From: Peribolospora baueri
Lineage: Eukaryota
Direction of reading: 5' to 3'
Length of the DNA stretch: 64,000 bases
NCBI GenBank assembly: GCA_029717555.1
Contig: JAMDHS010000013.1
Location: forward strand, 248,001-312,000
Shown piece after piece: positions 7,084 through 59,562 of this stretch. Every line of letters starts with the position of its first letter. Positions within the stretch are counted from its first letter, which is position 1. Under the pieces are notes generated by a model, which worked only from the letters and a program-made list of their open reading frames with translations, was not told the origin of the DNA and ran no database searches. Both the position numbers and the translations under genes were made by a program.

Positions 7084-9262
7084 TCACTTATGCGCCTTGT
7101 CGAGCGCCTGAGCCAGGTCGGCGATCAGGTCCTCGGCATCTTCTATGCCGACCGAAAGACGGATAAGGTTCTGCAGGAAGGGAGAGACACGGGCGTGCAC
7201 ATATACGTGGGGTCAGCCTCCCTCTCGTCCGCCCGATAACCCATGCACCACCGCCGCCGTTACTCGAGTGGAGCATTAACCAACTCACGTGCTCGATGCC
7301 GAGCTTTTTCCTTTCGGCGTTGCTCAAGCCACCGTGCGTCATGAGCGAGGGAAGCTCGGCGAGCGATTCTACGCCGCCGAGAGACTGTGCAGGGGTGGGA
7401 TGGGCGAGAAGAAAAGAGGTGTACGACGTCCCGTCCGTACGTCAGTGTCAGCGGGGGAAGGGGAAAGGGGAACGGATGAAAGGCAATAATGACCTGGAGA
7501 ACGCGACCGGTGCCGCGCCCCCGTCTACCTTACCTCCGCGAGCGTGAAGATCTTCAAGCTGGCCAAGAACCTGTCCGCCCTGACCGGGTCCTCCTCGCCT
7601 TCGTCGAGTCTGAATGTCACCATGCCGCCGTAGGGGAACGCTCCGTCCTCAGCCGTCTCCCCCGACCTCACGGCACCTCCCACCCTCTGCAGGTCCTTCC
7701 TCGCCCTCTCCGCCAATTGCGCCTTCGCGGTCTCGAAGCCGGGATGACTGGGCAGGCCCGGGTAGATGACCTTCCGCACGCCGGGGTGGGATGAGAGGAA
7801 GCGAGAGACGAGGAGGGCGTTGTGGCCGTGCTCGCGCATCCGCACGGCCAGCGTCTTGAGGCCCCTTTGAGCGAGCCAAGCGTCGTGCGGGGATGGGACG
7901 GCGCCGTGACTGCGTCGTCATTGTCGTCAACCGCCGCCATCCAAAGCGGAAGCAGCGAGCGTGGAAAGAGCGAACGAAAAAAGGTCAGAGGGATGTTGGT
8001 CACTTTACTTTACCCTTTGTCCTGCCCGTCAGAGGCGTCAAGTCGACTCACGCATTCTGCAAGAACCTGAGCCTCTCCACCACGTCATTGCTCAAACCCC
8101 TCCTCGTGACGAGGGCGCCCATGACGACGTCGCTGTGTCCGTTGAGGTACTTGGTCACGCTGTGGCTCACGATATCCGCGCCCAATCGGAGCGGCTGCTG
8201 ATAGTACGGGGAAAGGAAGGTGTTGTCGACGACGACGAGAATCGAAGGGTCGTGGGCGTGGACGGCGCTGGCGATTTGAGAGATGGGTGCGATGCGGAGC
8301 GTCGGGTTCGTTGGCGATTCGAGCCACACGAGCTGTGAACGGGGATAAAGAGAGGATGAAGTCAGATCGGTCTAAGATGCTCTCGCTTGGGAGGGGCGGG
8401 AAAGGAAAGAATCTACCTTGGTCTCAGGCCTGATCACGGCTTTCAGCGCGGCCTCTACGTCTCCATCGATGTCCAAGAAGGTCGTCTCGACCTGCTGCAA
8501 TTGTGTGGCGACCTTGGTGAAGTATCTGTGCAAACGCGACAAAATGGACGACGCCAGATTCACCTATGAGTACCGGCGTTCCAAACATAACTTCACCCTC
8601 ATCGTTCCTTCCTTTCTCTCACCGATGCGTTCCGCCGTATACGTCAGCGACGCTGACCACGTGCGCCCTCTTTCCATCGGCCGTGGGGGCGCACAGGGCT
8701 TGAACAACAGTCGCTGTAGCGGCGGAGCCGGAGGCGAAGGCAAAGCCGTGCTCGCCTTCTTCGAGGGAGGCGACCAGTGATTCAAACGCTGCGCGGTTGG
8801 GGTTCGAGGAGCGCGAGTATTCGAAGCCCTGAAGGACGGGAGGGGGACGGGTGGAGAAGAGAGGGGGAGAGCGAAGTGAGGAGAACGCTCGATTCGATAG
8901 AGCACGTAGCAGATATGTCGACGCCAGACAAAAGGCTCAACTCGGAAGACGAACACCGAGCTCACCATGTGCTTGCCAACCCGGGTCTGCTTGTAGGTCG
9001 TGCTCAAGCTGATGCCGGGAATGACGGCCCCCGTCTCCTTGCTCGCTTCCGAGCCGACGTGAATGGCACGGGTAGCGAAACCCCATTGGGCGTCATCGTC
9101 CCCGCCGGTGACACCTTCAAGGGCGGAGGCTGGTGTGGTGACGCCGGTTGCGGAAGAGCGAGGGGCGAAGGAAGGGGAGGACGAGCAGGAGGAGTGGAGC
9201 GAGAGCGAGGCAGGCGTGCTGAGGTCGGTGGTGGGTTCCAAGCGGTGGGCGTTGGCGTGCAT
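7084..9262 (-). CDS. CYS3: Cystathionine gamma-lyase (Cys/Met metabolism PLP enzyme)
   Basis: GFATRAIHVG, VIPGISLSTTYKQ, FEYSRSSNPNR, FASGSAA, WLESPTNPTL, VVDNTFLSPY, PLP-lysine motif SHSVTKYLNGHSDV, FTLAE, LIRLSVGIEDAEDLIADL. Multi-exon; stop TGA at 7086-7084. Confidence 0.93.
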
Positions 9263-9997
9263 GGCGGACGGTGGTGCGGCGAGTTGGGGTCCGGGAGATG
9301 TAAAGGCCTAAGGGTGCTCTATATGTATATCGCAAGGGTGAAGGGTGCGTGAGTGGACGGGGGCAGTTGGTCGTCTAAGTCACCGAGCCGAGACTGTCTT
9401 GTGCAGGTGCGAGAGTCCGTCGCGGGGATTACAAGTCCGTAGGCGAAGGGATGCGGGATTGGGTATGTCAGACCCGTGGCTTATTTTAAATAGAGGTGGC
9501 ACCAAGCCAAGACGGGGGTGGGATGGGGATGGCAGATGGTGGGGAGGAGACGAGGATGGTGGCGAGTGTAAGATGGCCGAGTCGCCGCGTCGTTCGTGTT
9601 TCTTTTGTTTCTCTCCTCCGCCCTCCTCGCCGGCTTTCTTATTCGCCGACGTCATTTTCCTCTCTTCGACATTCCATCCTCGACACCCGTCCAGATGACT
9701 CCATTCGGCCGAGACCATCGACGACGACGACGACGACGATCCCTCGGACTACTCGCGAGCGACGCGGAGAAGATGGCGCCATATCCCCGCAAGCACGTGG
9801 CGGGCACGTGCTTGATGGAAGGATTGGGGGTGGCGGAGGTACCACTCCCGCTTTTCCATGCGCCTGCTCGCTCACACGTGCGCTCGTCCACGTGCATGGA
9901 GACGTGCGAGAATGACGATGAATTCGCTCACGACCGACAGCAGGACGATCCTACAGGATAGGGTTGCGGTTCGCGAGGCGACGCCACCTTCGCCGCC

Positions 9998-11011
9998 TCA
10001 AAGCTCGCCAGCAAGTATCATGGGCCCTTCGATCTCCCTCCTCTTCTCTTGGCCCGCCACGCGCTCGGCAAGGGTGAGAGCGAAGAGGAAAGCCGTCCCA
10101 GGACCGCGACTGACAAGAGAGACATAGAGGAGAAGATCACGAGATGGGCGAGACCGAGTCGAAATAGCGATCGATCGAGAGCTGGCTGTTGTTCCAGCAC
10201 TGACTCGGAGATGGGAAGCAAGGAGCACTCACGAGGTGACGAGGTTTTCGGAGACAACCACACGATCTTCCGAGTAGTCATAATCTGCAGAGCCATGATC
10301 GCGAGGAGAACGTGGAGGAAATGATGAGCGATCCCATCTCCTTTCATTTCATGGGAAGAGATAGGCTTGCTGCTCAGCAGCGCAGAGGCACGCGCTTCAG
10401 ACCGCCATCTCGCCTTTTTCGAGATCTTGCTTCACGCTCGGGTGGCTTGTAACCTTTTTCCCTTTTGCGATACCGCTGGTCTTGGCTACGAGTGTTCCGG
10501 CGCATATCATGCCTACCGTCTTGGCAGGATCACCGTAGTAGGTCTGCACAAGCGATTGCACGAGAGAAGCCTGAGAGAGCGTCGCTGCGCCGGGTCCGCC
10601 GCCGGGAATGACAAGCAGAGAATAGGAGCGCTGCGGAGCAGGATCGAAAGAGGAGGTAAAGATAATAAGGGAAAAGGGAGGGTTCAGTCTCCGCGGGCCG
10701 ATGACCGTCCCACCCATCCTTTTTCATCAAACACTCACGGCCTTCTCCCCTCCTAAATCTTCCAGGTCAACGTCGGGGATAATGCGCAACCCCCTAGAGC
10801 ACACTGCGGGGCCTTGTTTTCCGTTCTTCAGCTGCACGCCCGCAGCGGTGACCTTGAGGCCGGCTCGGACGAGGACGTCGTAGGAGATGGTGAACCTGTC
10901 CGGGTGGGCCGCCCAGGTCTGAGCGTGCAAGAAACGGGTTCGCGAATTGCGTTTGTTCACTCACTCCATCTCCTCCGTCCCGTCTGCAATGAGAATCAAA
11001 GCTGAAGCCAT
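9998..11011 (-). CDS. DJ-1/PfpI family protein (glyoxalase III/deglycase-like)
   Basis: MASALILIADGTEEME|FTISYDVLVRAG..CSRGLRIIPD..LLVIPGGGPGAATL..GMICAG (nucleophile elbow)..VTSHPSVK..RVVVSENLVTSR|GPGTAFLFAL. Confidence 0.92.
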
Positions 11012-11259
11012 TTTCCTTCGATTCAGGCGAAGTTCTGAGGGGAGCGAGGTGTGAGTCTGGCCGGCGAGGCGATCGTCAACGTCGGTCGAATTACATCATC
11101 CGGCTCGCTTACTTTACGTTTACGCGCTTTACAATGAAATTGAAGTCGCGACGGAGCGCGTGAAGCTCCGGCGGACGCGTCGTGACGCTCCGGCGGATCA
11201 CGTCGCGACTGCGGCGCGCGCGCGAGGCTTTTAAGAGTTGGCGCGACCTGTCCTTCCTC

Positions 11260-14200
11260 CTCCCTTTTACCATCACCCACTCCGCGTCCCGGTGTCTGCT
11301 CATACCTCGCCGCCCCTAGACCTGCCGTCGCTCCGCGCACACCACTGCTCGACGAAGATGCACCGCTAGACAGCAGATAAGCCCACTCCATCCGTCCAGC
11401 TAGAGGCTTCTGCCTCTAGGGCTCGCCTTCCGCGTCGCCCACTCGCGCCCCCACCCTTCTCGCCTAGCCCAAGGCCACACGGCTCCTCAGCCCATCCTCG
11501 CGAGGCCTCACTTGCTCGGAAGCACCAACGACAGAGCACGCCGCGCCCCTATGGATTCCTCAACCAGGGCGCATGCCGCGATGTCCGTCGCGAATGTCCT
11601 TCGCCACGCCGCGTGCCGCGCTCTGGGAGAGATTACTAACCCTAAGTGTTTTTGTTGACGCGAGTGAGTTCGCTTTCTTAACATCGAGGACGCGACAAAG
11701 GCCGGGGTGCCGACGCACTCATCCGTCTCGCTGCTTTCCTTGCGCTTCAGGCTGGAGGCGCCGCAGGTCGCGTAGGGAGCACCGCACTTCGCTCAAGAGC
11801 GGGTTTGGGAACCATCAGATGTCATTCGCGGAAGGACTTCTGCTTTCGCAGGCCGCGGCGCACGAGTCAGAACTGTGGACAAGTGAATCGGTGATCGGTG
11901 ATACGATGCACCTGCGCAGCCCCGTACCCGTTCGCTTGACTCGACGGACTCCCCCTCTTCGCTTCGCTACGGGCTTCTTCCCCCGTTCCTCCGGATACCA
12001 AGAGCCGGCTGAGCAAGCCGAGACTCGGTAGAGGATTACGGTCCTGGAAGAAGCGGCGATGAGAAGAGCCGGTGTCCGTCGTCGGCGAAAGCGGGACGGG
12101 GATCGAGACCTGTGCGTCATCGGTCCTTGCTCTCCTATTTTAAAGAAAGGGAGATGCGCTTCTGGGTGGTTCGATCCCATCCGTTCTGCTCGTGGCCACG
12201 GACCGTCGCGTCAGCGTCGTCCTCCGTGGATGCCCTGACGCCCGCTCTAACGTGGTCGCTGGAGAAGTTTCTCACCCTCGCGTTTCACGTCTCTAGCGTT
12301 TCGCTCTTATTTCTCTTCTTTGGAAGGATCGAACGAGTGAGCGCAAGCGTGGAGCCGGGTATCCCGTTCGGCCTCCAGCGATGTTCCTTTGGGCCGCCAC
12401 GAGGCTCGGACGGAGATTCCAACTCGCGAGGGTGGCATGGGCGTTCCGTTCAGCTTCCGGCGAAGTCCTACGGGCCGCCTGCGAAGCTCGAACGGGGCCC
12501 CAGCCCAGACCCACCGCGTTCACAAAGACGAATCGGTCGTTGGAGGAGCCTTCCGGCTCCTCTCCCTTACTTCCCGCGCGTCTCAAGCGTCCCGCTCTTC
12601 GTTCCCTTCTTTGGATAGGCCCGGCGAGCGGGCGCGTCAACGGGCGTTCCATCCAGCTTCCAGCGATGCCCCTCGAGGCCGCCGTGCGGCTCGGATGGGC
12701 GCTCAACCCCGATCTTCGTTCGGATTACCCGAGTTCCCGGGGCTGGCGCATTTTGCGAGCTCTTTTCGGCGCCAGGGACAGCGGCCTTTTTGGTCCATTG
12801 CCCGAGCGCTTCTCCCACCTCTTTTCAGCGCTCGGTGTGAAAGCTGTTCGAGGTCAGTTGGAACCCGCGTTCGAGAGAGGCATGCGCGCCGTGACGGTCG
12901 TGCCGACAAAGCAGTTTTTCGTCGGCCGCTCTGTCGCGAACGCGCTTGGGAAGGCACATCGGAAAGGAGCTCTAGGGCGCGGTGCTCTCGTCGTTGCTTT
13001 CCTTGCTCTCCTCCTCGCGAGGCGGGCTTTGGACGACAGCACAGAGAAGGTGGCCGTTTGTGCGTTTCGGAGCTGGACGATAGACGACTAAGTTCGTCTG
13101 GTGGCGATGTTCGTCGGTGGGTGCGGAGTCGAGCAGTTCGTGCGATGGCACGTTGTCGTGGGTCAACGGGCGCGAGAGTGATGTCGTCTAGGTGACACTG
13201 GCCCGGCGGCTGGATCTTTTCCTTCTTCCCTTCCTTCAACTCGTCTTCCAGTGCCTTCATCCAGGCCATCCTTTTCGCTTCATGGGTTCGCTGCTTCACT
13301 TCTTCCTTCTGCTATGATCGCTGTCCTATCCTCTTCAGTGCCCTTCGTCGGTTGATCGTGACGGCGGGGCACGATCGGTCCCCTCTTCTCGCCTGACGTC
13401 AGAGTCCTCACGCAGGTGTTCTCCTTTTCCTGCCCCGCTCTTTGCCTTCCTCGAACCGTCTCTGGTTGACGATGAGAGTAGGCCAAAGAACGGGAGGAAA
13501 GGCTAGACTCGTTCCCGTCTCTCTGCATTCTCTCTCCCGCTCCAGGTTCTGCTGCCATTGCACGATCCTAGTGCTTGTTCAGGTGTCTTGCTCGCCTCCG
13601 CGTTCGCACCGTGCTATCGTCGGTGACGGGTAACCCTGAAGGTGCGACTTCAGTCTCGAGCGGTTCCCTCCGACCCTTCTTCCACCTTAGTCCATCAACG
13701 TTCCCATTGAGGTCAAGACCGAACTCTGGGACGGGGCTTCCTTGGCGTACTCCTTCGCGACTGGATGCGAACACGGGAAAGTCCGGATTTGATCCCTTTC
13801 GCGCGTCCTTCGTCTCTTCGTAGAACGAATGGCCGCGAAGGGAATCACGGACGGGCAATGCGGCCCCTTCGGGTGTTGGGAGAACCATGAGGGCTCGTCG
13901 ATCACCCCGCCGCGACGGTTAGTCCTCTCCCTCCTGGAAGGACGATCGCAGGGCTTTGCCTGCTCGGGAGCCACGCTTCGCCGAAGCGGGGTCGTCGGAG
14001 TGGTGCAGAGCTCGATGCGCAGATTCGGTGGTCGGCTTGCTTTCGCCGCATTAGAGCTACGTGCTCGCTTCGCCCGCCCGGTCCGGGCTCTTGCCCTCGT
14101 TCGGTCGCTTTATCGTTTTTCGTCCACTTCCAACGCGGTGACTCGCAGGGAAGCTGGGGGCGAACGCGAGGGGCGATACGGATGGGACGTGGAGCTCAAG

Positions 14201-15000
14201 TGGCCTTCCTGCACTTCCGTTCAGGTGCGCGTTGGGGCGATCGCCGCTGTTCTCATGAGCTGCACCTCAGGCTCGTCGGACAGCTGGATCGAGGTGGTCG
14301 AGGAGAAGGTCGGTGGGAGTCTGCGAGGTCCGCGCCTCGTTGTTCCGGTGATACGGATCGGCACGACGTGCGACGGGCGATCTTGGAGGAAGCTTGTGTG
14401 CACCGGCGAAAGCTGGGATGGCGGCTGGACCTGGTGCCGGAGGTGGCTTTGCGAGGAGACGGTCGAGCGAGGAAGACGGCTTCGCGTTCCGCTCGCTTTC
14501 CTCCTGGGAGCGGCGGGAGCGAGGGGATGCCGATCGAAAGCGTGAAGGGCATGGACTCTTTTCGTGCTGAGCGCGTCGAGGGCGCGATCGATGTCTCCCC
14601 TTCCTCTATGGGCTCTCAGGGTGAGGTCGTCGCGATCTCTCACACTTGTCGATTGGGGGCGCCACGAGGTGGAAGGTTTGAGCGGGATGCAGAAGCGCGA
14701 GGGGGGAGGCGGTGTGCTCCTGGGGAGGAAGGAGGGTCCCTGAGCGGAGGGACGAAGACGGGGAGGAGAGAGGTGTGACGGAGGCGCCCTGCCTCTTTCC
14801 GAGGTTCCAGCAAGGGCTAAAGGGAGGAGGGAAGGGAAGGGCCTGAGTCGATCAAGGTCGTCGACGAGGAAGGCCCGTCCTCTGCCCTCCCTTCCTCGTC
14901 GGCGAGGCGGCCCGCCTCGCCGACGTCTTTTTTCAGATGAGTATACGTTCGCTTCTCCGCTTCTGGCTAGGTCCATTGCACAGCGTGCTTATTCCCTCCA
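11260..15000 (+). ncRNA. Candidate telomerase RNA locus (ends uncertain; template at 11636-11645)
   Basis: No spliceable protein gene found in ~3.7 kb. CTAACCCTAA (1.67 copies of the TTAGGG complement) lies 10 nt 3' of a closed multibranch helix (CAGAGC 11532-37 / GCTCTG 11620-25) and is followed by a G-U-rich hairpin (11646-11693) and many further perfect stems. The orientation is divergent from the DJ-1 gene. Confidence 0.5.
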
Positions 15001-15914
15001 CCTTCGTCGTTCGTCGTATCTTGCGTCAATAGGTCACACTCGTTCCTCGTCTGGCGCCTCGGTCCGTGCGGAAAGGCATGCGGGCAGCATTATGCATTGT
15101 GCGTTATGGTGAGTAGCTGTCGGGCTCTTCTCGTTGCTCTGCCTGTTGGTCTGGAGTCGTCCGTTTTCCTCGAGCGAGTCGGAAAGCGCCCGTAAAGTAT
15201 TAGGATAATCGAAAAAATGCCTTTTAACGAATGGTGGCGGCCGCAAACGTCGAGCGTCAGCTGAAGACGAGCAGATAGCAGGCAGAGAGGGCCGCGCGCG
15301 GTATTTGGTATTTGCCGAAAAGTCGCACACCACGAATTCTCCGAAACCTTCCTCGATGAGATGGTCAAGTGTGGCGTTGTGCCCTTCGTCCGCTTTGAGG
15401 CCCCTGACGAGTTGATAGGATCATGGGGTAATAATTGTGTCTTTGTCTCTTGCCTCAATCGCCCGCCTCTCGCTCTCGGTTGCCCTTTGGCATACACGGT
15501 TGAGTACGCGTTCTCACATCACCTCGACTCCTATATAAGTAGACGGTGGTATCCCAGAACGAGAACCGCTGCAACGGCTCCATCCATCCATCCATCCATC
15601 TGCAACGTGGGAAAGAAAATCAAGTGAACGGCCCGGTCCTTGGGAAGTTGTCGGAGATGATACGCGCGGACACTTTGGCTGGCTGGACCTTCTTTACTGC
15701 TTTTTCCTTCTTTTCATTCCCCGCACGACTTTCCTTCTCTCTTCGCGCTCGCGCCGTTGAGTGAAAGATGGAGGCGACATAGCGTAAAGGCGGACGAGAG
15801 AAGAGCTGGCTAGCTACCTTGCCCACTGTTTCGGCAACGAAGATCGCTTCGGAAGAAGGGACGATTCCGTTGGAAATATGGAATATGGGCGATAGGATAG
15901 GGTGCCAACGCTAT

Positions 15915-17018
15915 TCACAGGGCGCTGTTGGCTTTGGCCGCCGCGGCTTGGCGAGCGGCGGCCTTGGCCCTTGCTCGAGCGATGATGGCCTCCTGCGTAC
16001 GGACGGGCGACGGAAGCCATGTGCCTTGGGTGAGTGCGACAATCGGTCGGGACGATGACGGACGAACGGGCGGACGACTCACCTCGTCAAAGGTCTTTGC
16101 CCAACTGGGACGCGCGGAGACGACGTCGAGCCATTTCTTGAGCCTGGCAAACTCGGGGGAGGTAAGCTTGTCGTGAACCTCCTTGGATCCCTTCTCCCCC
16201 GCAAGGAGACCCTTGGAGGTGAGGAGATACATGCGGCCGATGAAAGGCGAGATGGCCAACTCGACTTGCGAGTAGCGCTGGCCGAGGAAGAAGGGGCCTT
16301 GGTTGGAGCTGGAAAAGAGGAGGTCCTGGAAAAGGGCGAGGCCTTCGACCAGTTTCGGAAGGCTGCTTGCGTCGCCGTCAAGGTGAGCTTTAGACCAGTG
16401 CGACCCGACGAGTTGGGTGTAGCGCTCGATGAGATAGCGGATGCGGGCGCGGGTGAGAGGGCTTTGCGGAAGGGAAGGAAGGGGGGACGAACGAGTGAGC
16501 GAAGACGAGTGGCGGAAGGGAGGCACGGGGATCGGAAGAGAAGAGTTGCTCACTCCTCAGGCAAGATCCCGTCCTTCTTCACGTCGGCGATGTACTCGAC
16601 GATCACCAGGCTCTCCGGGAGATTGTACTCGTTCTGCTTGCCAGGGTTGATCACCAGGACGGGCACCTTGGAGGCCTCGTTCACCTTGGTGTACCTGGTG
16701 TGTGGTCGGAGAGGGCCGAACGGGTCAGTGTCTAATCGGATGATTACGATTCAACGCTGGGTTCGCATGAGCGTGAGCGCAATACTCACCAGGAAGGCTT
16801 GTTTTGAAGGTCAACCGCATAAGGCTCATACGTGAGCCCGCTCTCCTCGAGCGCCAGGAGCGCCCGCTGCGCGTAAGGGCAGACCTGTAGCGGAGCCAGC
16901 TAAGTTAGTCAGCCGACGTGATGCGGGGGCGAACACAGCAAGACGATGTTGAGATGGTGCGCACCCCCGCGGTGTAGATGAGGAACTCCTTGTCGGTCTT
17001 TGTGATCCCGTCGGCCAT
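15915..17018 (-). CDS. Glutathione S-transferase, omega-like
   Basis: MADGITKTDKEFLIYTAG|VCPYAQRALLALEE..VDLQNKPSW|YTKVNEASKVPVL..LPESLVIVEYI..RARIRYLIE..GPFFLGQRYSQVELAISPFIGR; catalytic CPYAQR motif. Confidence 0.9.
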
Positions 17019-17984
17019 GGTGGGTTGGGTGGCCGGGGTGATGGTCGGGGGAAGAACTGTGGGGGCCTCCACATGACGGACTGTCTCTCTTTTCCACCTG
17101 CGCGAAGAAGGCTTGAACGCCTAAGATAACTCAAGAGCCAAATCGATCAGCGAAAGGTCCGTCTCCGTCATTCACGGAAAGCGTCATCGATCTTCGATTG
17201 AGATTCACCTCCACTCTTCTCTCGGCCGTTCTCACCCCGAGCAACTCTCGATCACGTCTTTCCGTTCGGCTGAACGTCTGCCCGGAAAGCCGGCAGCCGA
17301 CCGATTGCCGCAGCACAGCCGTTCACGTGACTAACCGCAGCCCCGCAGCGAATGTCTCCGGCGATCCTCATTCGTTCGACTGCGCTTCCCGCCGCGGCGG
17401 TTTTAGATGGTTGGATTTTTTTTGTGGACGGACGGACAGCGACGGGGGGATGGGGGGACGGCTCGGCGATGGACGACGACGTCCGATGGTCGAGTCGAGC
17501 CAAAGTCGACGGCGTGAGCCGGCGCGGCTGTGTCTTGGTCATCTCTTTCGTGCTCGTTCGTCAAAGACGCGGCGCCGTCTGAGTGAGCGAGCGCACTGTG
17601 GAGACTCGGGCGTGAGTTAGACGCTATCCGACAGCCGTCGCGGGGGTGAGGAGGGTGTTCCTTGGCGGCTATCGCGGCCCTCAGTGAAGATGTCTCTGTC
17701 GTATCTATACGTACGGGCGAGAGGGTGAATGGAACGATGTTCGAGGTGCGTCGAAGAGGCGGACGAGATTGCCGTGGGGACAAGCGCGGGACCGACGTTA
17801 AGGAGGACCGCATCTCGGCCCGGTGGAGAGCGAAAGCGAGGGCGAGGACGGGCTACGGGTGAGGTTAGATTAGATGGCTAGCTGTACGTATGTGGGCGAC
17901 AGAGGACTACGGTGGTAAATGGAAATACAGGAGACAGACAGCGGCGGGTGGTGGGCGATATGCGTTGGTGAGGGAGGTGTGGGC

Positions 17985-33412: not shown

Positions 33413-34938
33413 ATGGCTGACGCCCTCAAGAATATGGTCAACAAGGTTGCCGGCAAGGACGACAAGAAGCTCATCCTCGTCACCGGCGTGTCCGGCTTCC
33501 TCGGGGCACATGTGTGAGCAGCAGTGGCGATTTCTCGATGGGCCCTGCCAGCCAGGTACCAATCACGTCGAGCCAGAACTCTTTGTTGATTTTACCCTCC
33601 TTCCCCATCGCCTTCTCGCTTCGCTACAGCGCCCTGGCCGCCCTCCAACGCGGTCACACCGTGCGCGGCACGGTCCGCTCCGACGCGAAAGCGCAAGCCG
33701 TCAAGGCATCTCCGCATTTCAAGAAGTACTCCGAGGCGGGCAAGCTCCAATTTGCGATCGTCGACGACATCGCCTACGGTGACCTGTCCCAGGCCATCGC
33801 CGGCGTCGACGCCGTCGCCCACGTAGCCTCGCCCTTCCACTACAGAGGCGAGGACTACGAGCGCGACTACTATACGCCCGCCAGGGACGGCACGCTGAAC
33901 GCCTTGAAAGCCGCCGCCCAGGAGCCCAAGGTCAAGGCCTTGGTCGTCACCAGTTCGTTCGGCGCCGTGGGCGACTTTTTCAACGAGTATGACATAAAGT
34001 CGCCCCTCAACGGTATGATCTACACGGAGAAAGACTGGTTGCCCACGACACCGGAGGTGTGTTAATAGCTCGTCCGACCCGACTGACCGACCGTGTGTTG
34101 ACCCTCCACGTATCGCCTCTCGTCCCTCTTTCCTTTCCGCATAGCGAGCCGCCGTCACGCCCATGCAGGGCGAAGCGTACTGCTACTCGAAGAAGCTGGC
34201 CGAACAAGCGGCGTATGACTTTGCACGAGAGAACAAAGTGTCGTACAAGGTCTCCACGATGTGCCCTCCCATGGTCTTCGGACCGGTCGTGCACCCGCTC
34301 TCCAACTTGTCCTCCATCAACGAGTCTAGCACGGTCGTCTTGGATATCATCAACGGCTCCCCGCCGCCCACGAGCTTCCCGGCTTACGCGGACGTGAGAG
34401 ATGCCGCTCTCGCTCAGTGAGTGCCGCTTGATTTCGCCCTTTCCCTTTCCACCCCGGGCACACGCGTCATCGCGAGCTTAAGCCTAACCCCTCCCTTTCC
34501 ACCCATCCCGTCCCGTCCCGTCCCGCCCCGTCCCCAACAGCGTCCTCGCCCTCGAGCAAGAAGCCGAGGGCCGCTTCCTCATCAACAATGGCCCGTGGGA
34601 CACGCAGCTCATCGTTGACTTTATCCGCAAGACCTACGGCGCCAAGGCGGCCAACATTCCCGCCGGCGAGCCTGGACAATAGTAGTGTTCCCTTTTTCCC
34701 GCTCCTTACTTCCTGCCAGAAGAGATGGATGTGTCTCGCTGACCATCCGTCCTCGTCGGCCCTTCCCTCTCCAATCCACGTCCATTCTCCGAACAGCTTA
34801 ACGGCCAACCCGAAGCTTTACAAGCTCGACGCCTCGCGCTCCGAAAAGGTCCTCGGCCTCCACTATCGTCCGTTCGAGGAGACGTTCAAGGACGCCGCCG
34901 ATAGCCTGTACGCCCTGAAAGAGGTCGTTCCTAACTGA
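33413..34938 (+). CDS. NAD(P)H-dependent aldehyde/ketoreductase (extended SDR, Gre2/aldehyde reductase II-like)
   Basis: ILVTGVSGFLGAH Rossmann motif, VRGTVRS, AVAHVASPF, VVTSSFGAV, catalytic YCYSKKLAE, MCPPMVFGP, ADVRDAA, DASRSEKVLGLHYRPFEET. Confidence 0.92.
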
Positions 34939-35441: not shown

Positions 35442-37423
<1,982 letters not shown>

Positions 37424-41158: not shown

Positions 41159-44100
41159 TTAACGTTCTTCCCTCCCAACTGCATCGCCCGCGCCGACGAC
41201 CTGCCTCGCACCCACACCCACACCGCCTCCGAGGCTCCTTCTCAACCACCGCGCCAACTCGGCGCCCCTTAGCCTCTCCGAGCCCGTCAAGCTGAACTGG
41301 AGCTTGACGTACTCGAGCGGCTCAGCACCCGCGGCGCCAGAGAGAGACGGAGAGGAGGATAGGTCGAGCGGCAGGTTGAGCCCGTTGAGGAGCGAGTCCA
41401 ATTCCGGTCCGATCGCCGGTCCCCCACTCGTCGTCCCGGCACTGGGGTGCGCCGAGACGGAGGACGACGACGACGATGGGCGGCGAGCGTCGGCGAGAAG
41501 GAGCGAGCGCAGAGGAGCGAGGCGGGGAAGACCGAAATTGAGCACATCGTTCTTGTTGGCGTTGGCCGGAGGCTTGCGCTCCGAGGAAGAAGCGGAAGAG
41601 AAAGGGTGCTGTCGGCTGGGGGAGAAGACGGGGATGCGCCCGGCGCCAGACCTCCCGTTCGCGTTGTCGTTCGTCGGGCCGTCGCCGCCAAAGTCGGCTT
41701 GCTGCTCCGGCTGGCGCTTCTGTGCGGGCAAGTGCGACGAAAAAGACGGAGCCCGCGAGGCAAAGTCGGAGGCGCGGACGGTGTCGTCCGAAGAAGCGGA
41801 GGAGGGTGACAGAGGCCCGGGAGAGGGAGACGGGGAAGGAGAGATGACCTTGTTCACAGCCAACGCCCCCTCCTCATCCTTCTTCTCGTCCCTCGTGGGC
41901 GCACAAGAAGGTGCAGCGGGTAGGAGGATGGTGAGCTTGGTCGCCTCAGGCGCCGCACACCTGTCCTGGTCTCTGTCTCCTCGGAGCCGCTGCCGAGACA
42001 TGTCATCGTCGACGTCGACGTCCATCCTTTCTCCGTCCTTCTCCTCGCTCTGCCCGTCCGAACTGCGCCCCCTCTCCACGTCGTCGTCATCACCGAGGCT
42101 GCCACCGGCAAGCCCACCATCGAGCAACTCGACGACCGGCGGACCCGCAATGAACAACAAGGCCGCCGGCTGCGCGCCGTTCTCCTCTTCCCTCGACGAG
42201 CTGCCGCCGCTGCCGCCGACGGGCGCGGAGACGGGGCCGTCAATACTGAGCAGGCTCAGCCCGAGCTCGCGGCTCACGCGGTCCCAATCCACGGGCTCGA
42301 ACGTGCGCGGGATGAGGTCCGTGTTCGTGCTCGGACGAGGCGCGTCCGTGTTGCTGTTGCGAGGGACATAGTATGCCACGGCCTTCCTCGTCTCAGGGGT
42401 GGAGCCCCCTGACGGCCTATTAGCTCCAGAAGGAGCGGACGAAGAGATGTTCGAAGCCGCAGCGGCGTCGGGCCAGTCGATGCTGCAGACGGGCAAGAGG
42501 TCAGCCACGTCACGAGGCACGTCGGTGATGGTGCACGAGGCAAGGGAGGCGGAGGTTTGGTCGCTGGACACCGGAGAGATAGCGAGGTCGCGCTCATCGG
42601 AAAGGTGGGAGGTGGGGTGGAGCGAGGAAGGGTCGCCGGAGAAGGAAGAGGAGGCAGCACGGTCTCGCGAGCGAGAGCGGCGCAAGGTGGTCGAGGAGAG
42701 GACGCGACCGAGGGAGAAGGAGGAGCTGAAAAAAATAAAACAATGTAAAGCCAGTCATGTCAGATATCTACTCAGAGCGACCAAAGCGTCCAAGCGCATA
42801 CACGCGCTCTTGGACCGCTCCAAAACCCCGTCCACCCACCTTTCAGTCCCCCAATCAACTCTGGCAACACCGTCGCTGCCACCGAGCCCTCCGGCCCCAG
42901 CGCGCTGCTGCTGATGTCCGCCAGGCAGTCCGAAGAGAGCGAAGCTAAACAAGATAACCATGAGCGCCACCCCGCCGGCACCCTTGCGAGCTGCCGCGCT
43001 CTCGGACTTTATCGTCGAGGTGCCGTCGCGGTGGTGGTGGGAGTGGTGGGAGGTGGAAGGAGAGGGGGAAGGGTAGGGAGAAGAGCCTAGGAAGGCGCTC
43101 TCCTCCGAGCTGCTCATCCCTCCGGCACCGAGGAAGGAAGGAGCCGAACGAGGCGAGGCGGATGAGGAGGGCATCGCTGCCGTCGCCGCCGAAGAGGAGG
43201 AATGGTCAGGGAAGAGCGATGCGAACACCCCCTTTCCGTTTTCCGCGTCGTCGACGAATGGAGAAGGCGGCGGGAAAGGGATTGAGACCATCGCATCCTC
43301 TGCGCCGGCTCGCATGCCGTCGGCGGGGCGACGGTGTTGCCCGTGCTGCTGTGAACGCGAGTGCGAGTGCGCGTAGCTTGGGGAGGTGCTGGAGGTTTCA
43401 ACGCGAAGGTCGGGAGGCTGCGCGGCCTTGCCAGAGGACGAAGTCGTCGAAGCGGGCGGGGTAATGGAGCCTTCCTCCATTTTGACAGCTCCAGCCGGGG
43501 CTCCGGACCAAGCATAAGCGCCAGGCATGAAAGAAGTTTCAGAAGTGGCGCCAGTGTACGACGAAGACTGACCTGAGGCCGAAGCCGGCGAAGAACGCTG
43601 GGAGCGCAGAGAGGCGAGCTCGACTTGCAAGGCAGCCTCTCGCTGCTTGATGGCGTGCAGCTCGGCACGAAGCGACTCGATCTCGCGCATGTGGGCTTGG
43701 CGAGACGGGGAAGGGGAGGAAGACGTCGCTGTGAGCGAGTCCATCTTCTCTTTCTTCACGTTCGCCGTCGTCGCACCGGCCCCCTGCCTTCCCGCGTCAA
43801 TCGCCTCGCGAACCAAAGACCTCGTTTCCTCCTCCTCCTTCTCCAACCACTTCTCCATCCCCTCGGAACAAGCGTCGAACGCGGCCGCCCAAGCGCGATG
43901 GAAAGCCTTGACCCTGATCTCGAGCTCCTCGAACTGTTCCCTTTTACGTTGTCGACTGAGGAAGGCCGCCGCGCGGTTCTTCACCAGCCGAGCCTCGCGC
44001 TTGGTCAGACCGGAGACGTCCGGGGGAACGAAGAGAGAGCTGTGACGGGCAGAAGTGTCGATGACGGGGAGGCGATTGCCTGAAGAGGTGGAGTTGGTAT

Positions 44101-53134: not shown

Positions 53135-54750
53135 TCAACCTCTCCGCGCCTTCTTCCGAGCCTGCCCGACAGCTTTGTCGAACTTCCCCTTCACCCTTGC
53201 CTTCCCGCCCCCTCCAAACGCCTCCTTCTCGTCCCTAGTCCCTCCAGCTGTCTCCCGCGCCCTCTCGAGTGCGGAAGTCTTCCTACCGCTCTTGCGCAGC
53301 ACATCGTACTCGTCTCCACGACGACCATCATCACCACCGCCCGTCTTGCTCCTCTTCTTCGCCCGGCCCCCAGTGCCGCCCTCGGCATCTCGATCGTACC
53401 CCCGAAGAAGGTCTCCGAACTCCTCCTCATACCCACCGCCCATCCTCCCATGTCTTCCCTTGCCGCTCGTAAGACCGGCCCCGCCGAGCGCAACGTCCGC
53501 CTCGTCCCTCTTCCTTCGCTTGGCGTCCTTCTTGGTCATTACCAGACGCGTCATATTCTCCTCCTCGTATTGCGTCATGCGCTCCAGGGCCTTTGCACGT
53601 GACGAGCGCAGGTGAGAGGTCTGACCCAGGCCAGAGGCAGAGATGCTGTGCGGGTCGGAGGAGAACGAGCCTGCTAGGGTCGAGAGGAGGCGGGACGACG
53701 GCGCCGACTCTCGGTCCTTGCGTTTGCCTGCAGATATGACAAGTAAAGCGCAAGACCGAAGAGGGTTAGGGAAGCTCGAAGACCCCCGTGTCTACCCGCG
53801 CGATACATACCTCTCTGAGCATTTTCGTCGTACGGCATAGGCGCTAGTTTCGGCGGGCGGTACACCTCTTCACCAGTAGAAGCGGACGCCTTGCCCATTC
53901 GTCCTTTCCCTGCTCCTCCACTCTCCTTGTCCTCGTCTCCCTTGTCCGTGGCGTTGCGCGCTCGTGAAGGAAGGAGAGCGGCAGGATTGGGCCGGAAGGA
54001 AAGCGGATCTGTAAGGCGGCAATGAGCCATGGGACAAACAGTATCGAACTTGTTGAGTGATCGCTTCACCGGGCACATGGGCAAAGCGTACGCCAAATTG
54101 GGCGGACCAGGAAAACGAAGACTCACCGATCTCCCCCTCCTCCTCTTCCTTCCTTCCACCTCCCAGCCTCTCCCTGGTCTCCTGATCCTCAGCAGCGCGC
54201 ACGAGCTTGTCGACCTGGTAGCGCAGCTTGCTCTCCAGCGGACGAATCTTCTCGAGCATGAGCCTGATCTTCACCAGCTGCGGGACGATCAGGTACTCGC
54301 TGCCCTCCTCATCCTTCCCCCCGGCAGATGAAGGCGGTGGGAGAAGCGTGGCGGAGGAGGAAAGTTGGGAAGGGGATACATCGGGAGGGTGAATCGGTCG
54401 ACCGCGGAGCTTGGAGCCAACGATAAGGAGGAGGTGATGGAGGTAGGAGAGCAAGAGGTGGTTCTTGAGAGAGAGGATGGAGACGCCTTCCGAGTAAAGG
54501 AGGGAATCAGTGTCGCGGAGTCTGTCAAAGAGGAGAATGTGGGCAGAAAACCGAGGGGAATGGTTGCCCAGTTGAGCGACAGACCCTGGTGAAGATAGAG
54601 GCTAAGCGATCACCTCCAATCCACTCACTTCTCCAGCGTGGGTTGGGCGGAGCCGTTGAAATTCTTGAGTTCTGAATGAATGCTCTTGACGAGCTGCAAG
54701 AAAGATCGGACCTCTTCTGGAGATCCTGAAGGTTCGTCGGCGGTGCTCAT
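53135..54750 (-). CDS. LCP5: U3 snoRNP/SSU processome protein Lcp5/neuroguidin (Sas10/Utp3/C1D family)
   Basis: GVSILSLKNHLLLSYLHHL..LVKIRLMLEKIRPLESKLRYQVDKLVRAA..DPLSFRPNPAAL..VYRPPKLAPMPY..MTQYEEENMTRL. Confidence 0.92.
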
Positions 54751-56592: not shown

Positions 56593-59562
56593 TCAATCCT
56601 TGGACCTCAAACCGGCCAAGATCTCCTTGAGCCTCTCATACTCCGGCTCGTCCTCGAAAGAGTCCTTGGTCCGGCCCAAGAAGGCGCGTACGATGCTCCT
56701 CGCCTGGAACTTCCAGTCCTTCAACGCCGGCTCTGTCCGCCCTTCGCCCTGTCCTCCCTCTCCCGCGGACACCGCCACCTCCCTGGGCCCGAGGTTCTCC
56801 AAATACTCCGCCATCTCCTCCACCTCCTGTGCCGCCTTTCTGAACTTCTCTACACTCGTTTCCGCCCCTCCCGCGTCATCCGAGCCCGCTCCACACCGGA
56901 ACGCCTTCAGGTACGCGTCAATCGCCCCGCGGTAATCGCCCCGCCACAGAAGAAGGCGGGCGTAGGCGCGAAAGGTGCGAGGAGAGGAGGCGATGCGGGG
57001 TAGGATGGCCGTCGTGAACAGGCGCTCCACGCGCGGATACAGACCGTGCCCTTCGTTCGGGTTGTGCTCCACCTTGGTCGCCGTCTCGCCCGCGAGCGCG
57101 GACGGCTCTTGCACGGCATCTTCCTCCCTCGACGGAGCCCGAGTGACGGCGTCGACCAACCTTTCCAGAACATCTTCGTCCACGGCCTTTTCGCCTATCT
57201 TGGGCGCCAGAATGTCCACGAGCCTTGCCATGGCCCGACACGCCTCGGAGAGCTCGCCCACGTCGACAGCGACAATCATATAGTTGGTCCAGATGCGCCA
57301 GCTCTCCTGACTGTGTCGGATGCCTTGGCGGAGCGCGTTGAAGGCGTCGCGCTTTCGAGCGTAGGGCACCCCCGAGGCGGTAGGACGCGTCGAGAGCGCA
57401 CCGTGGCTGAGCGACACGGCTGCCTGCTCTTCATCGTCCTCGTCAAGGGCAGGATCATGAACAGACTGGACTTTGTCCGCACCTTCCTCCCCCATGCGCA
57501 AATACACGCTCGCGAGGTTGTTCCAGCTCTCGCCGTCCTCGTCGTCCAAGGCGACGCACCTCCCGAACGCTGTTGCCGCTTCCTCCCAGTCCTCTGCGCG
57601 CATCGCCGCGCAGCCGAGGACGAACCATGAGCGCGTGTAGAGCGGGTTGATGGATAACGCCGTCTTGAGCGGTTCAATAGACTCCGCAAACTCGCCTCGA
57701 GCATAGTGGTATCCGCCCAGAGAGCGCATGGCACGAGAGCTCTGATGATGAGACACCTCCCATGCCGTATGGTAGTGCTTTGGCTCCTTCTCGAGATCAC
57801 CCAACAGACACCACAGCTTGGCCTTTCTGCCGTCGCTCATCCTGGCCTTGCTCCTCTCCTCTGGAGCGCGCGCCCCCGTCCTGGACTCCGCGATGCGCAC
57901 TTCCACCTCCTTCCTCCTCCCTTCGAGCAAATCCCTGACGACCTCGACGCCTTTATCTTCCCTCTCTAGCAACTGCCAACACGCCACCACGTCTTCCCAC
58001 ATCTCCAGGCGCTCGAAGATCTCCAGCGCCGAGCGCACGACCCCGATGCTGAGGTATCGCTTGGCGAGTTCGTGCTGCATCTCCCACCTCGACGGCAGTG
58101 GCATCGAATGGAAGTATCGCAGTCGCTCCTGAAGCGTCGAGTCTGTCGTCGGCATCTGGTCGATGAGCGCCTGCAGCTGCAACGCCGAGCGCTCGACGGT
58201 GCGAGAGCGGTTGGACTCGAGTCGAGAGCGGAGGAGAAGTGCCATCGTGTGCACAGACCAGTTCATCGGGTTCTCTAGGACACGAGCCACAAACGCCATC
58301 ATCTGCTCCGACGTCAGGCCATGTGAGGGGTTCATGTTGCGGATGTTGAGGCAGAGCGCAAGGAGGACGCATTGGTCAAGCGGATGTAACTTGGGTTGGG
58401 AGCCCGGCTGGATGTGCGAGAGCTTGCCATGCGAAGACTCCGGTTTAGAGGTGGTCGTGTACTTGGTATGTTCCAGGAGCGTATCGTCGTTGAGACTGAG
58501 CGTCGTAGGCACCGCCGCGGCTCCTGTCTCTCCCTCCTTTTGACCAACTACCGTATCTGGAGAATCTTGCTTCTCTTTTCCTTCCGACCGTCGCACCACG
58601 TTCTCCTTGGCCCCTTCGTCTTGATCATTCCTCTCTTCCCGCTCCCTACTTTCCGCAAGCAGGACGAGCTGGCTCAGGTCCTTGCTTTGGAACTTGGTCT
58701 TCCTCCCCAGTGCGCCCGTAAGCACGTACTCCAAGCCACTCTGCCGCGCCGCTTCAACAAACAGATCCGCCGCTTCCCGGTCCTGACCGAAGTGGTGAGG
58801 CACGAGTCCTCGTTCGAGGGTGAGCCGAGCGTGAAGATCTGATCGCCAGGATGGAGGGAATGCAGAAATGTCGGAAGAGGAAGAGGACGAGTCGTAGGCA
58901 AGGGAGGAGAGGAGCTTCTGCACGCGAGAAAGAACGTCTTCGGGAACGGGAACGGGCTCGTCAAGAAGATGCTGATGTACCATTGCGGCTCGAAGTCGCC
59001 ACCAGTGAATAGACTCTAGTCGCTGGAAGGGTAGAGCAAAGACGAGTTGGGCAAGGACAAGGAAGGAGGGGTGTTTGGGAAGGTGGTATGCGGGCTCACC
59101 GCCGTATTGCAGACGGCCGAGCGCGGAGGCGTGCACATCATCTTCGGACGTCGAACTCGACGACGACGGGAGATTCAACACGGCGAGCGGTGTGACGTCG
59201 AGATCAGGGCCGGTCCAGTTGGCTTGAACGAAGGCGTGCAGGGCGGCGACGCCGACGGCGAGCATGATCAGCTCGTTTTCGTCGTCGGAGACGAAGCGGG
59301 TAGACTCCCGGACGACAGAGAGGTTTTCAAAATCGAACACTGAAGACGATGGATCGCGACTGGTCTCAGGAAAAGACGCGGAGAAAAGCTCCTTCGCCCA
59401 CCTCGAGGTCAGCGCTTCAGAAAGGTCTCCGTGGACGACCTGTCGAGCAAGTTGGACGGCTGGAGACTGCGCTGCGTCCTTGTCGTCCACGTCGCCATGC
59501 AGGATCCAAGTACCCTCTATCAAACACCATTGTGCCTCGTTCGGCGAGGCTGAGGAGGCCAT
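56593..59562 (-). CDS. EMW1: TPR protein Emw1/TTC27 (intronless)
   Basis: Single ORF: LHAFVQANWTGP, LTGALGRKTKFQSKDLSQLVLLA, LNDDTLLE, NWSVHTMALLLRSRLESNRSRTVERSALQLQAL, SALEIFERLEMWE and TPR repeats. Likely start MASSASP at 59562. Confidence 0.93.
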   Translation of the reverse strand: MASSASPNEAQWCLIEGTWILHGDVDDKDAAQSPAVQLARQVVHGDLSEALTSRWAKELFSASFPETSRDPSSSVFDFENLSVVRESTRFVSDDENELIMLAVGVAALHAFVQANWTGPDLDVTPLAVLNLPSSSSSTSEDDVHASALGRLQYGGEPAYHLPKHPSFLVLAQLVFALPFQRLESIHWWRLRAAMVHQHLLDEPVPVPEDVLSRVQKLLSSLAYDSSSSSSDISAFPPSWRSDLHARLTLERGLVPHHFGQDREAADLFVEAARQSGLEYVLTGALGRKTKFQSKDLSQLVLLAESREREERNDQDEGAKENVVRRSEGKEKQDSPDTVVGQKEGETGAAAVPTTLSLNDDTLLEHTKYTTTSKPESSHGKLSHIQPGSQPKLHPLDQCVLLALCLNIRNMNPSHGLTSEQMMAFVARVLENPMNWSVHTMALLLRSRLESNRSRTVERSALQLQALIDQMPTTDSTLQERLRYFHSMPLPSRWEMQHELAKRYLSIGVVRSALEIFERLEMWEDVVACWQLLEREDKGVEVVRDLLEGRRKEVEVRIAESRTGARAPEERSKARMSDGRKAKLWCLLGDLEKEPKHYHTAWEVSHHQSSRAMRSLGGYHYARGEFAESIEPLKTALSINPLYTRSWFVLGCAAMRAEDWEEAATAFGRCVALDDEDGESWNNLASVYLRMGEEGADKVQSVHDPALDEDDEEQAAVSLSHGALSTRPTASGVPYARKRDAFNALRQGIRHSQESWRIWTNYMIVAVDVGELSEACRAMARLVDILAPKIGEKAVDEDVLERLVDAVTRAPSREEDAVQEPSALAGETATKVEHNPNEGHGLYPRVERLFTTAILPRIASSPRTFRAYARLLLWRGDYRGAIDAYLKAFRCGAGSDDAGGAETSVEKFRKAAQEVEEMAEYLENLGPREVAVSAGEGGQGEGRTEPALKDWKFQARSIVRAFLGRTKDSFEDEPEYERLKEILAGLRSKD

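What the first reader, a model, noticed from the sequence alone, without database searches (positions are those of the whole stretch)
11260..15000. Candidate telomerase RNA gene hidden in the only gene-free block
Seen: CTAACCCTAA at 11636-11645 is the only full copy I found in the window, and it lies in the only multi-kb stretch where no gene can be spliced. A multibranch helix closes 10 nt upstream (CAGAGC 11532-37/GCTCTG 11620-25, enclosing GCGCCC/GGGCGC 11543-72 and CGCGA/TCGCG 11577-92). A G-U-rich hairpin follows directly (GTGTTTTT..GAGGACGC, GTTGA/TTAAC, GCGA/TCGC; 11646-11693). A TTTTAAG box (~11229) and a pyrimidine-rich stretch lie divergent from DJ-1. Known: vertebrate and filamentous-fungal telomerase RNAs use a (C)UAACCCUAA template behind a template-boundary helix, fungal ones are 1-2+ kb Pol II RNAs, and few are described in basidiomycetes. 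Inference: this is the telomerase RNA. The 3' end and CR4/5 domain were not located.
Basis: partly seen in the sequence, partly recalled or inferred. Interest (0 to 1): 0.92.

Follow-up and report, generated by a model that had tools for sequence, protein, structure and literature searches.

The report
Possible telomerase RNA gene, unproven
A 4-kb protein-free stretch of a basidiomycete fungus carries a telomere-template-like motif followed by a strongly folded RNA-like region, so it may encode the RNA part of telomerase, which is not yet described for this branch of fungi, but nothing here proves it.

Summary
CTAACCCTAA sits at 11636-11645 (+), and that 10-mer occurs once in the window. The window also holds a second 10-nt TTAGGG-type permutation (53762, minus strand) and two 9-mers, so such motifs arise by chance.

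The block ~11080-15000 looks non-coding by Pfam, codon usage and one homology search.

Three new points favour a plus-strand RNA:
- The motif stays unpaired in all four long-range folds.
- Positions 11900-12760 fold far better than shuffles (z -6.5).
- Duplicated hairpin modules at 12285-12705 keep their pairing through compensatory and G-U changes, and do so much better on the plus strand.

Several things could not be found or checked:
- No pseudoknot, conserved P6.1/CR4-5, Sm site or 3' end was located.
- No Rfam family matches, and there is no likeness to the Ustilago telomerase RNA.
- No RNA data were available, the only relative is ~98% identical, and no genome was held to confirm TTAGGG telomeres.

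The host is a basidiomycete whose best protein hits are Agaricomycotina at ~50% identity. My literature searches found no telomerase RNA described for that subphylum.

Verdict: a credible but unproven candidate, about 40% likely.

The parts
11229..11290 (+). TTTTAAG box (11229-35) and a CT-rich tract, a possible promoter/start region shared divergently with DJ-1 (ATG at 11011, minus strand)
   Evidence: Read directly from the sequence; DJ-1 N-terminus. The promoter role is inferred, not tested.
11529..11657 (+). Predicted template-enclosing helix (11529-39 with 11646-57). It contains a boundary-like helix, CUC..CCAGGGCGC (11559-72) with GCGCUCUGG..GAG (11618-31).
   Evidence: Minimum-energy fold of 11280-12800. 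The local fold is not better than shuffles (z -1.0).
11636..11645 (+). Template-like motif CUAACCCUAA (1.67 TTAGGG repeats) within the unpaired stretch 11632-11645
   Evidence: Unpaired probability is 0.62-0.98 against a mean of 0.33. It is unpaired in the 3 further fold ranges.
11646..11693 (+). It competes with the enclosing helix.
   Evidence: Complementarity seen. It is not used in the minimum-energy folds.
11913..12101 (+). Long, very stable hairpin arm
   Evidence: Inverted repeat I1. The 200-nt window 11900-12099 has z -5.1 (+) and -4.4 (-). Structure.
12128..12158 (+). The only A/U-rich hairpin in the block (CUCUCCUAUUUUAAAGAAAGGGAG)
   Evidence: No pseudoknot partner was found.
12285..12420 (+). 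Module A: a hairpin with a CUUC-UUUG-GAAG tip, followed by hairpin H1
12432..12502 (+). Hairpin H2, a third copy of the H hairpin. It lies in the 12401-12600 window, the lowest plus-strand z of the whole-window scan.
   Evidence: z is -4.8 on the plus strand and -0.8 on the minus strand.
12576..12705 (+). Module B, a paralogue of module A (70% identical)
   Evidence: In the plus-strand consensus fold, 35 pairs are predicted and none is broken; 4 changed on both sides and 10 on one side.
12785..12793 (+). Weak Sm-like site CCUUUUUGG, a guess for the 3' end region
   Evidence: The flanking hairpins are not significant (z -0.56).
14858..14933 (+). Double G+C hairpin followed by U6 at the right edge of the block. 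It may or may not belong to the same RNA.
   Evidence: z -5.1 on the plus strand, -3.6 on the minus strand.

Best explanation
The left part of the block, roughly 11300 to 12800, is a stand-alone plus-strand gene for a long structured non-coding RNA, transcribed divergently from DJ-1. Most likely it is the telomerase RNA of this fungus. On this reading, CUAACCCUAA (11636-45) is held single-stranded between a boundary helix ending at 11631 and a downstream helix, and is copied by TERT into TTAGGG repeats. The long hairpin (11913-12101) and the duplicated hairpin modules (12285-12705) would serve as scaffold and protein-binding arms.

Shown: the motif, the lack of coding signal, and the plus-strand-biased structure with compensatory changes between paralogous modules.

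Inferred: transcription, the RNA ends, that the motif and the structured domain lie on one RNA, any link to telomerase, and that the telomeres are TTAGGG.
For: - The exact 10-mer is unique in the window.
- The block is non-coding and is not a dispersed repeat: no match elsewhere in the window with E below 0.2.
- The motif is unpaired in 4 of 4 fold ranges, and a helix ends 4 nt upstream of it.
- 11900-12760 folds at -412.9 kcal/mol against -359.7 for shuffles (z -6.5; 0 of 20 shuffles as good).
- In the whole-window scan of 319 windows on 2 strands, 12401-12600 (+) has the lowest z of all (-4.8), against -0.8 on the minus strand.
- Modules A and B, 70% identical, give 35 consensus pairs with none broken, 4 changed on both sides and 10 on one side. 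The consensus energy is -42.75 kcal/mol on the plus strand against -23.95 on the minus strand.
- The three H hairpins keep 33 of 36 cells paired, with 3 compensatory pairs; sliding the partners gives 50% or less.
- The size and the template position (~330 nt from the putative start) resemble the 1,291-nt UmTER (PMC9564094, sections 5-6 read).
- TTAGGG-like repeats are said to be typical of basidiomycetes (PMC13234504, passages).
Against: - The window holds 4 loci with TTAGGG-type permutations of 9 nt or more, and 2 of them are 10-mers, so hundreds are expected genome-wide. U. maydis has 248-782 such loci (PMC10035886, PMC9564094).
- The local boundary helices are at chance level.
- No triple-helix pseudoknot signature was found (0 hits; shuffles average 2.2, so the descriptor has little power).
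- P6.1-like hairpins occur at chance density: 5 in 3.76 kb against 0.76 per kb background. The one best placed (12528-40) is hit by a 4-nt deletion at 12533 in the sister species.
- There is no canonical Sm site and no splice-type 3' end.
- No Rfam telomerase hit appears even at E up to 10.
- The Ustilaginales elements CE1-3 and the Emi1 ORF are missing.
- With only 3 hairpin copies, 69 of 500 shuffles reach the observed covariation.
- The consensus structures were predicted from the same sequences on which the pairs were counted.
- Another stretch of the window (56601, inside a gene) has an equally low running z.
- The right-hand 2.2 kb of the block is unexplained.
Confidence: 0.4

Rival explanations
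1. A structured long non-coding RNA with some other role, for example a scaffold whose repeated hairpins bind a protein. The telomere-like 10-mer would be a coincidence.
For: The structural evidence speaks for an RNA, not specifically for telomerase. None of the telomerase-specific elements was located.
Against: Long, highly structured non-coding RNAs are few in fungi, and telomerase RNA is the main known class of this size (my own knowledge, no call). The motif lies in an unpaired stretch with a helix just upstream.
Confidence: 0.3
2. A non-functional or merely regulatory intergenic spacer: a shared DJ-1 upstream region plus decayed local duplications and palindromes. The motif would be chance or a telobox-like promoter element.
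For: There are 4 template-like loci in 64 kb. The local fold at the motif is at chance. Divergence from the sister species is ~1.8% in 10954-15542 against 2.0-2.5% in the flanks (my arithmetic), so the block shows no clear extra constraint. 3.9 kb is long for one RNA.
Against: The plus-strand consensus structure is far better than the minus-strand one, with many G-U pairs, and 12401-12600 has z -4.8 against -0.8. Neutral decay of DNA palindromes should treat both strands alike. A neutral spacer should also diverge faster than exon-rich flanks, and it does not.
Confidence: 0.22
3. One or more unrecognised, fast-evolving protein-coding genes.
For: The block has 5 ORFs of 250 aa or more, against a mean of 0.6 in dinucleotide shuffles (0 of 300 shuffles reach 5).
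Against: The long ORFs overlap one another in different frames and on both strands. Their codon-usage scores run from -0.075 to +0.003, against 0.058-0.148 for real genes. None has a Pfam family. ORF 13891-14778 has no homologue among 5,339 candidates. The translations are R/S/P/G-rich. Only one of the five ORFs was searched for homologues.
Confidence: 0.05

Closest known systems
Ustilago maydis telomerase RNA (UmTER / ter1; PMC9564094, PMC10035886)
   Same: A basidiomycete TER with a UAACCCUAA-type template in the 5' third, about 1.3 kb long, highly structured, and containing internal repeats (TRR1/2 in U. maydis).
   Different: UmTER is cut from the 3' UTR of the Emi1 mRNA and lies between rbf1/emi1 and an ornithine aminotransferase gene. 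Here there is no Emi1-like ORF upstream, and the neighbours are DJ-1 and a GST. CE1, CE2 and CE3 are not upstream of the template, and there is no AAU5-6CY site. No sequence similarity could be tested directly because no UmTER sequence was held.
Putative Malassezia telomerase RNA (PMC12506658, passages read)
   Same: A stand-alone intergenic candidate in a basidiomycete, proposed from a template motif plus synteny, with a boundary stem upstream of the template.
   Different: It is about 500 nt long, has a CACTAA-type template, lies between NDK1 and a DUF1115 gene, and is supported by 19 species in which template changes match telomere changes. No such comparative support exists here.
Vertebrate / Pezizomycotina TER core (PMC3592445, passages read)
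   Same: The template permutation CUAACCCUAA equals the first 10 nt of the human template (the human sequence is recalled, not from a call). A helix lies a few nt upstream, and long helical arms follow.
   Different: The defining P6/P6.1 (a 4-bp stem with an NUNGN loop) and the U-rich triple-helix pseudoknot were not located. There is no Rfam hit.

Membership tests
Telomerase RNA (any lineage) | A template complementary to at least 1.5 telomere repeats of the same organism | tested here: inconclusive
   CUAACCCUAA is present. The organism's telomere repeat could not be read because no genome is held and the window has no TTAGGG array. That basidiomycetes typically have TTAGGG-like repeats comes only from the literature (PMC13234504); Cryptococcus/Kwoniella use TAAC(4,5) (PMC11185503).
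Telomerase RNA (any lineage) | A template-boundary helix just 5' of the template | tested here: inconclusive
   A helix ending at 11631, 4 nt upstream, appears in the long-range fold. The local fold is no better than shuffles (z -1.0), and there are no relatives to test covariation.
Telomerase RNA (any lineage) | A template-proximal pseudoknot with a U-rich triple helix | tested here: inconclusive
   My descriptor gave 0 hits in 11646-12900, but shuffles gave a mean of 2.2, so the test has little power.
Telomerase RNA (vertebrate / non-budding-yeast fungal type) | CR4/5 three-way junction with P6.1 (4-bp stem, 5-nt NUNGN loop) | tested here: inconclusive
   There are 5 P6.1-like hairpins in the block at background density. 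None sits 3' of a P6 hairpin within a closed junction. 12528-40 is disrupted in organism B. The vertebrate-like motif at up to 3 mismatches gives 18 matches against 22 expected.
Telomerase RNA (any lineage) | A stable transcript bound by TERT | not testable with these tools
   No RNA run was available, so no transcript or TERT-binding data could be examined.
Telomerase RNA (any lineage) | Template invariant and helices covarying at the syntenic locus of relatives | tested here: inconclusive
   Only one other species was found, at ~98% identity, and the variant table was cut before the block. The metagenome scan gave only a hit at 23% identity.
Ustilaginales-type TER (UmTER family) | An Emi1 ORF upstream on the same transcript, CE1-CE3 5' of the template, and an AAU5-6CY site | tested here: not met
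   No twin-Cx9C ORF appears in any frame of 11200-11636. There is no CE3, and CE1 and CE2 occur only downstream of the template. There is no AAU5-6CY site.
Rfam telomerase families | A match to a curated covariance model | tested here: not met
   The permissive scan of 9000-17000 gave 7 matches, all with E of 0.6 or more and none a telomerase family. The whole window gave 0 matches at gathering score.

The most novel reading that the evidence does not exclude
This is the first telomerase RNA gene identified for a basidiomycete outside the Ustilaginomycotina. The lineage's nearest protein matches are Agaricomycotina. The gene would be stand-alone and divergent from DJ-1, not derived from an Emi1 mRNA. 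It would carry a human-like CUAACCCUAA template, and its scaffold would have grown by tandem duplication of hairpin modules that still covary.
Probability: 0.4. Interest if true: 0.75.

Novelty: new member of a known kind. Interest (0 to 1): 0.5.

Why it matters
Telomerase RNAs diverge so fast that each fungal lineage has needed its own discovery. In the held literature, basidiomycete TERs are described only for Ustilaginales, Urocystidales and Violaceomycetales and, as a proposal, for Malassezia. The Kwoniella TER is stated to be unidentified (searches; PMC11185503 passages).

A confirmed locus here would give a seed for finding TER across a large, economically important subphylum. It would also show whether the mRNA-derived biogenesis of U. 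maydis is a smut peculiarity. Even if the RNA is not TER, a ~1-kb plus-strand RNA domain with covarying duplicated hairpins would be an unannotated structured RNA.

Tried and rejected
- No whole genome is held, so telomere repeats, TERT and rival loci could not be checked.
- No RNA holder was listed among the 4 runs found.
- Read laying printed only the first 40 of 184 substitutions, all left of 10954. The positions inside the block are therefore unknown, apart from the 3 indels printed inside it, at 11180, 11832 and 12533 (12 of 53 indel rows were shown for the whole 9000-17500 stretch).
- The metagenome scan with the DJ-1 exon gave one locus at 23% identity, L001, which was of no use.
- A 15-bp helix joining 11282-96 to 12768-84 appeared in one fold but vanished in 3 other fold ranges. 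I rejected it.
- The T>A skew of the block (-0.19) was considered as a sign of transcription direction. Skew does not track the sense strand in 11 known genes, so I did not use it.
- ACGCGT (an MCB-like box, recalled) in the DJ-1 intergenic region is not enriched: 14 matches against 18.9 expected.
- The covariance model of the H hairpin finds only its 3 training copies, plus one hit at E=5.
- DJ-1 synteny with U. maydis is rejected: the ter1 neighbours there are rbf1, emi1 and an ornithine aminotransferase gene.
- An earlier scan note of a TER candidate beside DJ-1 in another fungus could not be retrieved by sequence and remains an untested lead.
- The supplement of PMC9564094 (alignments of 18 basidiomycete TERs) could not be read. 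It could bear on the homology tests.
Full report
**What is there.** The window reads ...GAGAGAUUACUAACCCUAAGUGUUUUUG... with CTAACCCTAA at 11636-11645 on the plus strand.
- That exact 10-mer occurs once in 64 kb. Shuffles give a mean of 0.03, and 3 of 100 have at least one copy. The 8-mer core is expected 0.28 times.
Counting all permutations of 1.5 TTAGGG repeats, the window has four loci: 11636 (+), 36561 (-), 53762 (-; itself a 10-mer, CCCTAACCCT, inside what looks like an intron) and 61882 (+).
- Such motifs must therefore number in the hundreds genome-wide. This agrees with the 248 and 782 loci reported for U. maydis (PMC10035886 section 19; PMC9564094 section 5).
- There is no telomeric array in the window.

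**The block is non-coding.**
- DJ-1 (PF01965, E 1.8e-16) is on the minus strand. Its start, MASALILIADGTEEME, is at 11011.
- A GST-like gene lies on the minus strand right of 15100, with weak GST_C matches.
- Between them, none of 8 long ORFs has a Pfam family.
- All 25 block ORFs of 80 aa or more score 0.051 or less in a codon-usage log-likelihood trained on seven genes of the window. Those genes score 0.058-0.148, and the five block ORFs of 250 aa or more score -0.075 to +0.003.
- The translations are R/S/P/G-rich and overlap in several frames.
- The 295-aa ORF at 13891-14778 has no homologue among 5,339 candidates.
- The excess of long ORFs (5 observed against a mean of 0.6) is best read as local A-poverty, because the ORFs overlap each other.
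- The block is not a dispersed repeat.

But 11520-11700 folds no better than shuffled sequence: z -1.0 on the plus strand and -1.56 on the minus strand. The minimum-energy structure uses CCAGGGCGC/GCGCUCUGG rather than the CAGAGC/GCTCTG closing helix.

In a fold of 11280-12800 the stretch 11632-11645 (AUUACUAACCCUAA) is unpaired, with probabilities 0.62-0.98 against a mean of 0.33. A helix ends at 11631, and 11529-39 pairs with 11646-57. The motif also stays unpaired in three other fold ranges. A terminal helix seen did not survive those changes of range, so I dropped it.

**New evidence for a plus-strand RNA.**
- A scan of 200-nt windows shows strong structure from 11900 to 12700.
- Across the whole window (319 windows, both strands; mean z 0, sd 1.2) the lowest value of all is 12401-12600 on the plus strand: -4.8, against -0.8 on the minus strand.
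- 11900-12760 folds at -412.9 kcal/mol, z -6.5 on the plus strand and -5.5 on the minus strand.
- The region contains a 190-nt hairpin (11913-12101) and a tandemly duplicated module: A at 12285-12420 and B at 12576-12705, 70% identical, plus an extra hairpin copy at 12432-12502.
- The consensus fold of A and B on the plus strand has 35 pairs. None is broken, 4 changed on both sides and 10 on one side, and many are G-U. Its energy is -42.75 kcal/mol. The minus strand gives 29 pairs and -23.95 kcal/mol.
- The three H hairpins keep 33 of 36 cells paired, with 3 compensatory pairs. Slid controls reach 50% at most, but 69 of 500 shuffles reach the observed score, so three copies alone are not significant.
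- Caveat: the structures were derived from the same sequences on which the pairs were counted.

**Telomerase-specific tests.**
- No Rfam family matched.
- The vertebrate/fungal P6.1 core at up to 3 mismatches gives 18 matches against 22 expected.
- Hairpins with a 4-bp stem and an NUNGN loop occur 5 times in the block, against a background of 0.76 per kb. None sits in a P5/P6/P6.1 junction.
- The best-placed one (12528-40) coincides with a 4-nt deletion in organism B.
- A U-run/UUU...AAA pseudoknot descriptor found nothing, but it is unspecific.
- The only Sm-like sites are CAUUUUGC (12749) and CCUUUUUGG (12785). No 5' splice site follows them, and their flanking hairpins are not significant.
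- The Ustilaginales elements and an Emi1 ORF are absent.
- The U. maydis neighbours (rbf1, emi1, ornithine aminotransferase) differ from those here.

**Organism and relatives.**
- A TTC27-like protein of the window has its best matches, at about 50% identity, in Agaricomycetes, Dacrymycetes and Tulasnella. No Ustilaginomycotina, Pucciniomycotina or Tremellomycetes appear among the 120 listed (phylum).
- Four DNA contig runs of one study hold the locus. Two are the likely source, and two are a second organism at about 98% identity.
- Organism B differs by 124 substitutions over 9000-15542. Forty of them lie before 10954, so about 1.8% remain for 10954-15542, against 2.0-2.5% in the flanks. This is my arithmetic on a truncated table, and it shows neither extra constraint nor faster decay.

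**Literature.** Searches found basidiomycete TERs only for the smut orders (PMC9564094, PMC10035886) and Malassezia (PMC12506658). The Kwoniella TER is called unidentified (PMC11185503, passages). Basidiomycete telomeres are described as typically TTAGGG-like (PMC13234504, passages).

**Verdict.** The locus combines a template-like motif in an accessible position with a genuine-looking plus-strand structured RNA in a non-coding block. That is what a fungal TER gene should look like. The motif class is common, none of the TER-specific core structures could be shown, and expression, telomere sequence and conservation are untested. I put TER at about 0.4, another structured RNA at 0.3, spacer or regulatory DNA at about 0.2, and coding at 0.05.

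Noticed in passing
window 14858-14933: Two adjacent G+C-rich hairpins (one a perfect 14-bp inverted repeat) are followed by T6. The fold has z -5.1 on the plus strand and -3.6 on the minus strand. They lie at the right edge of the gene-free block, facing the 3' end of the GST gene, and could be a 3'-end structure for either transcript.
   Followed up: partly
window 12800-14850: The right-hand ~2 kb of the block is non-coding by the same tests and is largely unstructured. It contains a long CT-rich tract at ~13215-13345. It may be a second transcription unit or a long 3' extension; I could not explain it.
   Followed up: partly
window 11152-11205: A 22-nt unit repeated 2.5 times (CGGACGCGTCGTGAAGCTCCGG) lies in the DJ-1/candidate intergenic region. 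It may be a transcription-factor site array.
   Followed up: no
window 35442-36200 (-): An ORF matches the RNA cap guanine-N2 methyltransferase family (Tgs1-like; PF09445, E 2.6e-10). This is the enzyme class that makes TMG caps on snRNAs and on many fungal telomerase RNAs. It sits 24 kb from the candidate, which is probably coincidence.
   Followed up: no
window 53762-53771 (-): A second 10-nt TTAGGG-type permutation (CCCTAACCCT) lies between a GTATGT and a TGCAG, apparently inside an intron of a minus-strand gene.
   Followed up: partly
window ~34500-34550 (+) and 41209-41224 (+): There are short C-rich simple repeats: (CCCGT)n-like after 34483, and a CACCCA/CCCACA run at 41209.
   Followed up: no
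window 15670-15756: One run of organism B (X4) joins across 85 nt here, with one other letter in between, while the other run (X3) does not show this joint. It may be an indel polymorphism in or near the GST gene.
   Followed up: no
window 56601-57400: A stretch inside the TTC27-like gene has a running fold z-score as low as that of the candidate's structured domain.
   Followed up: no
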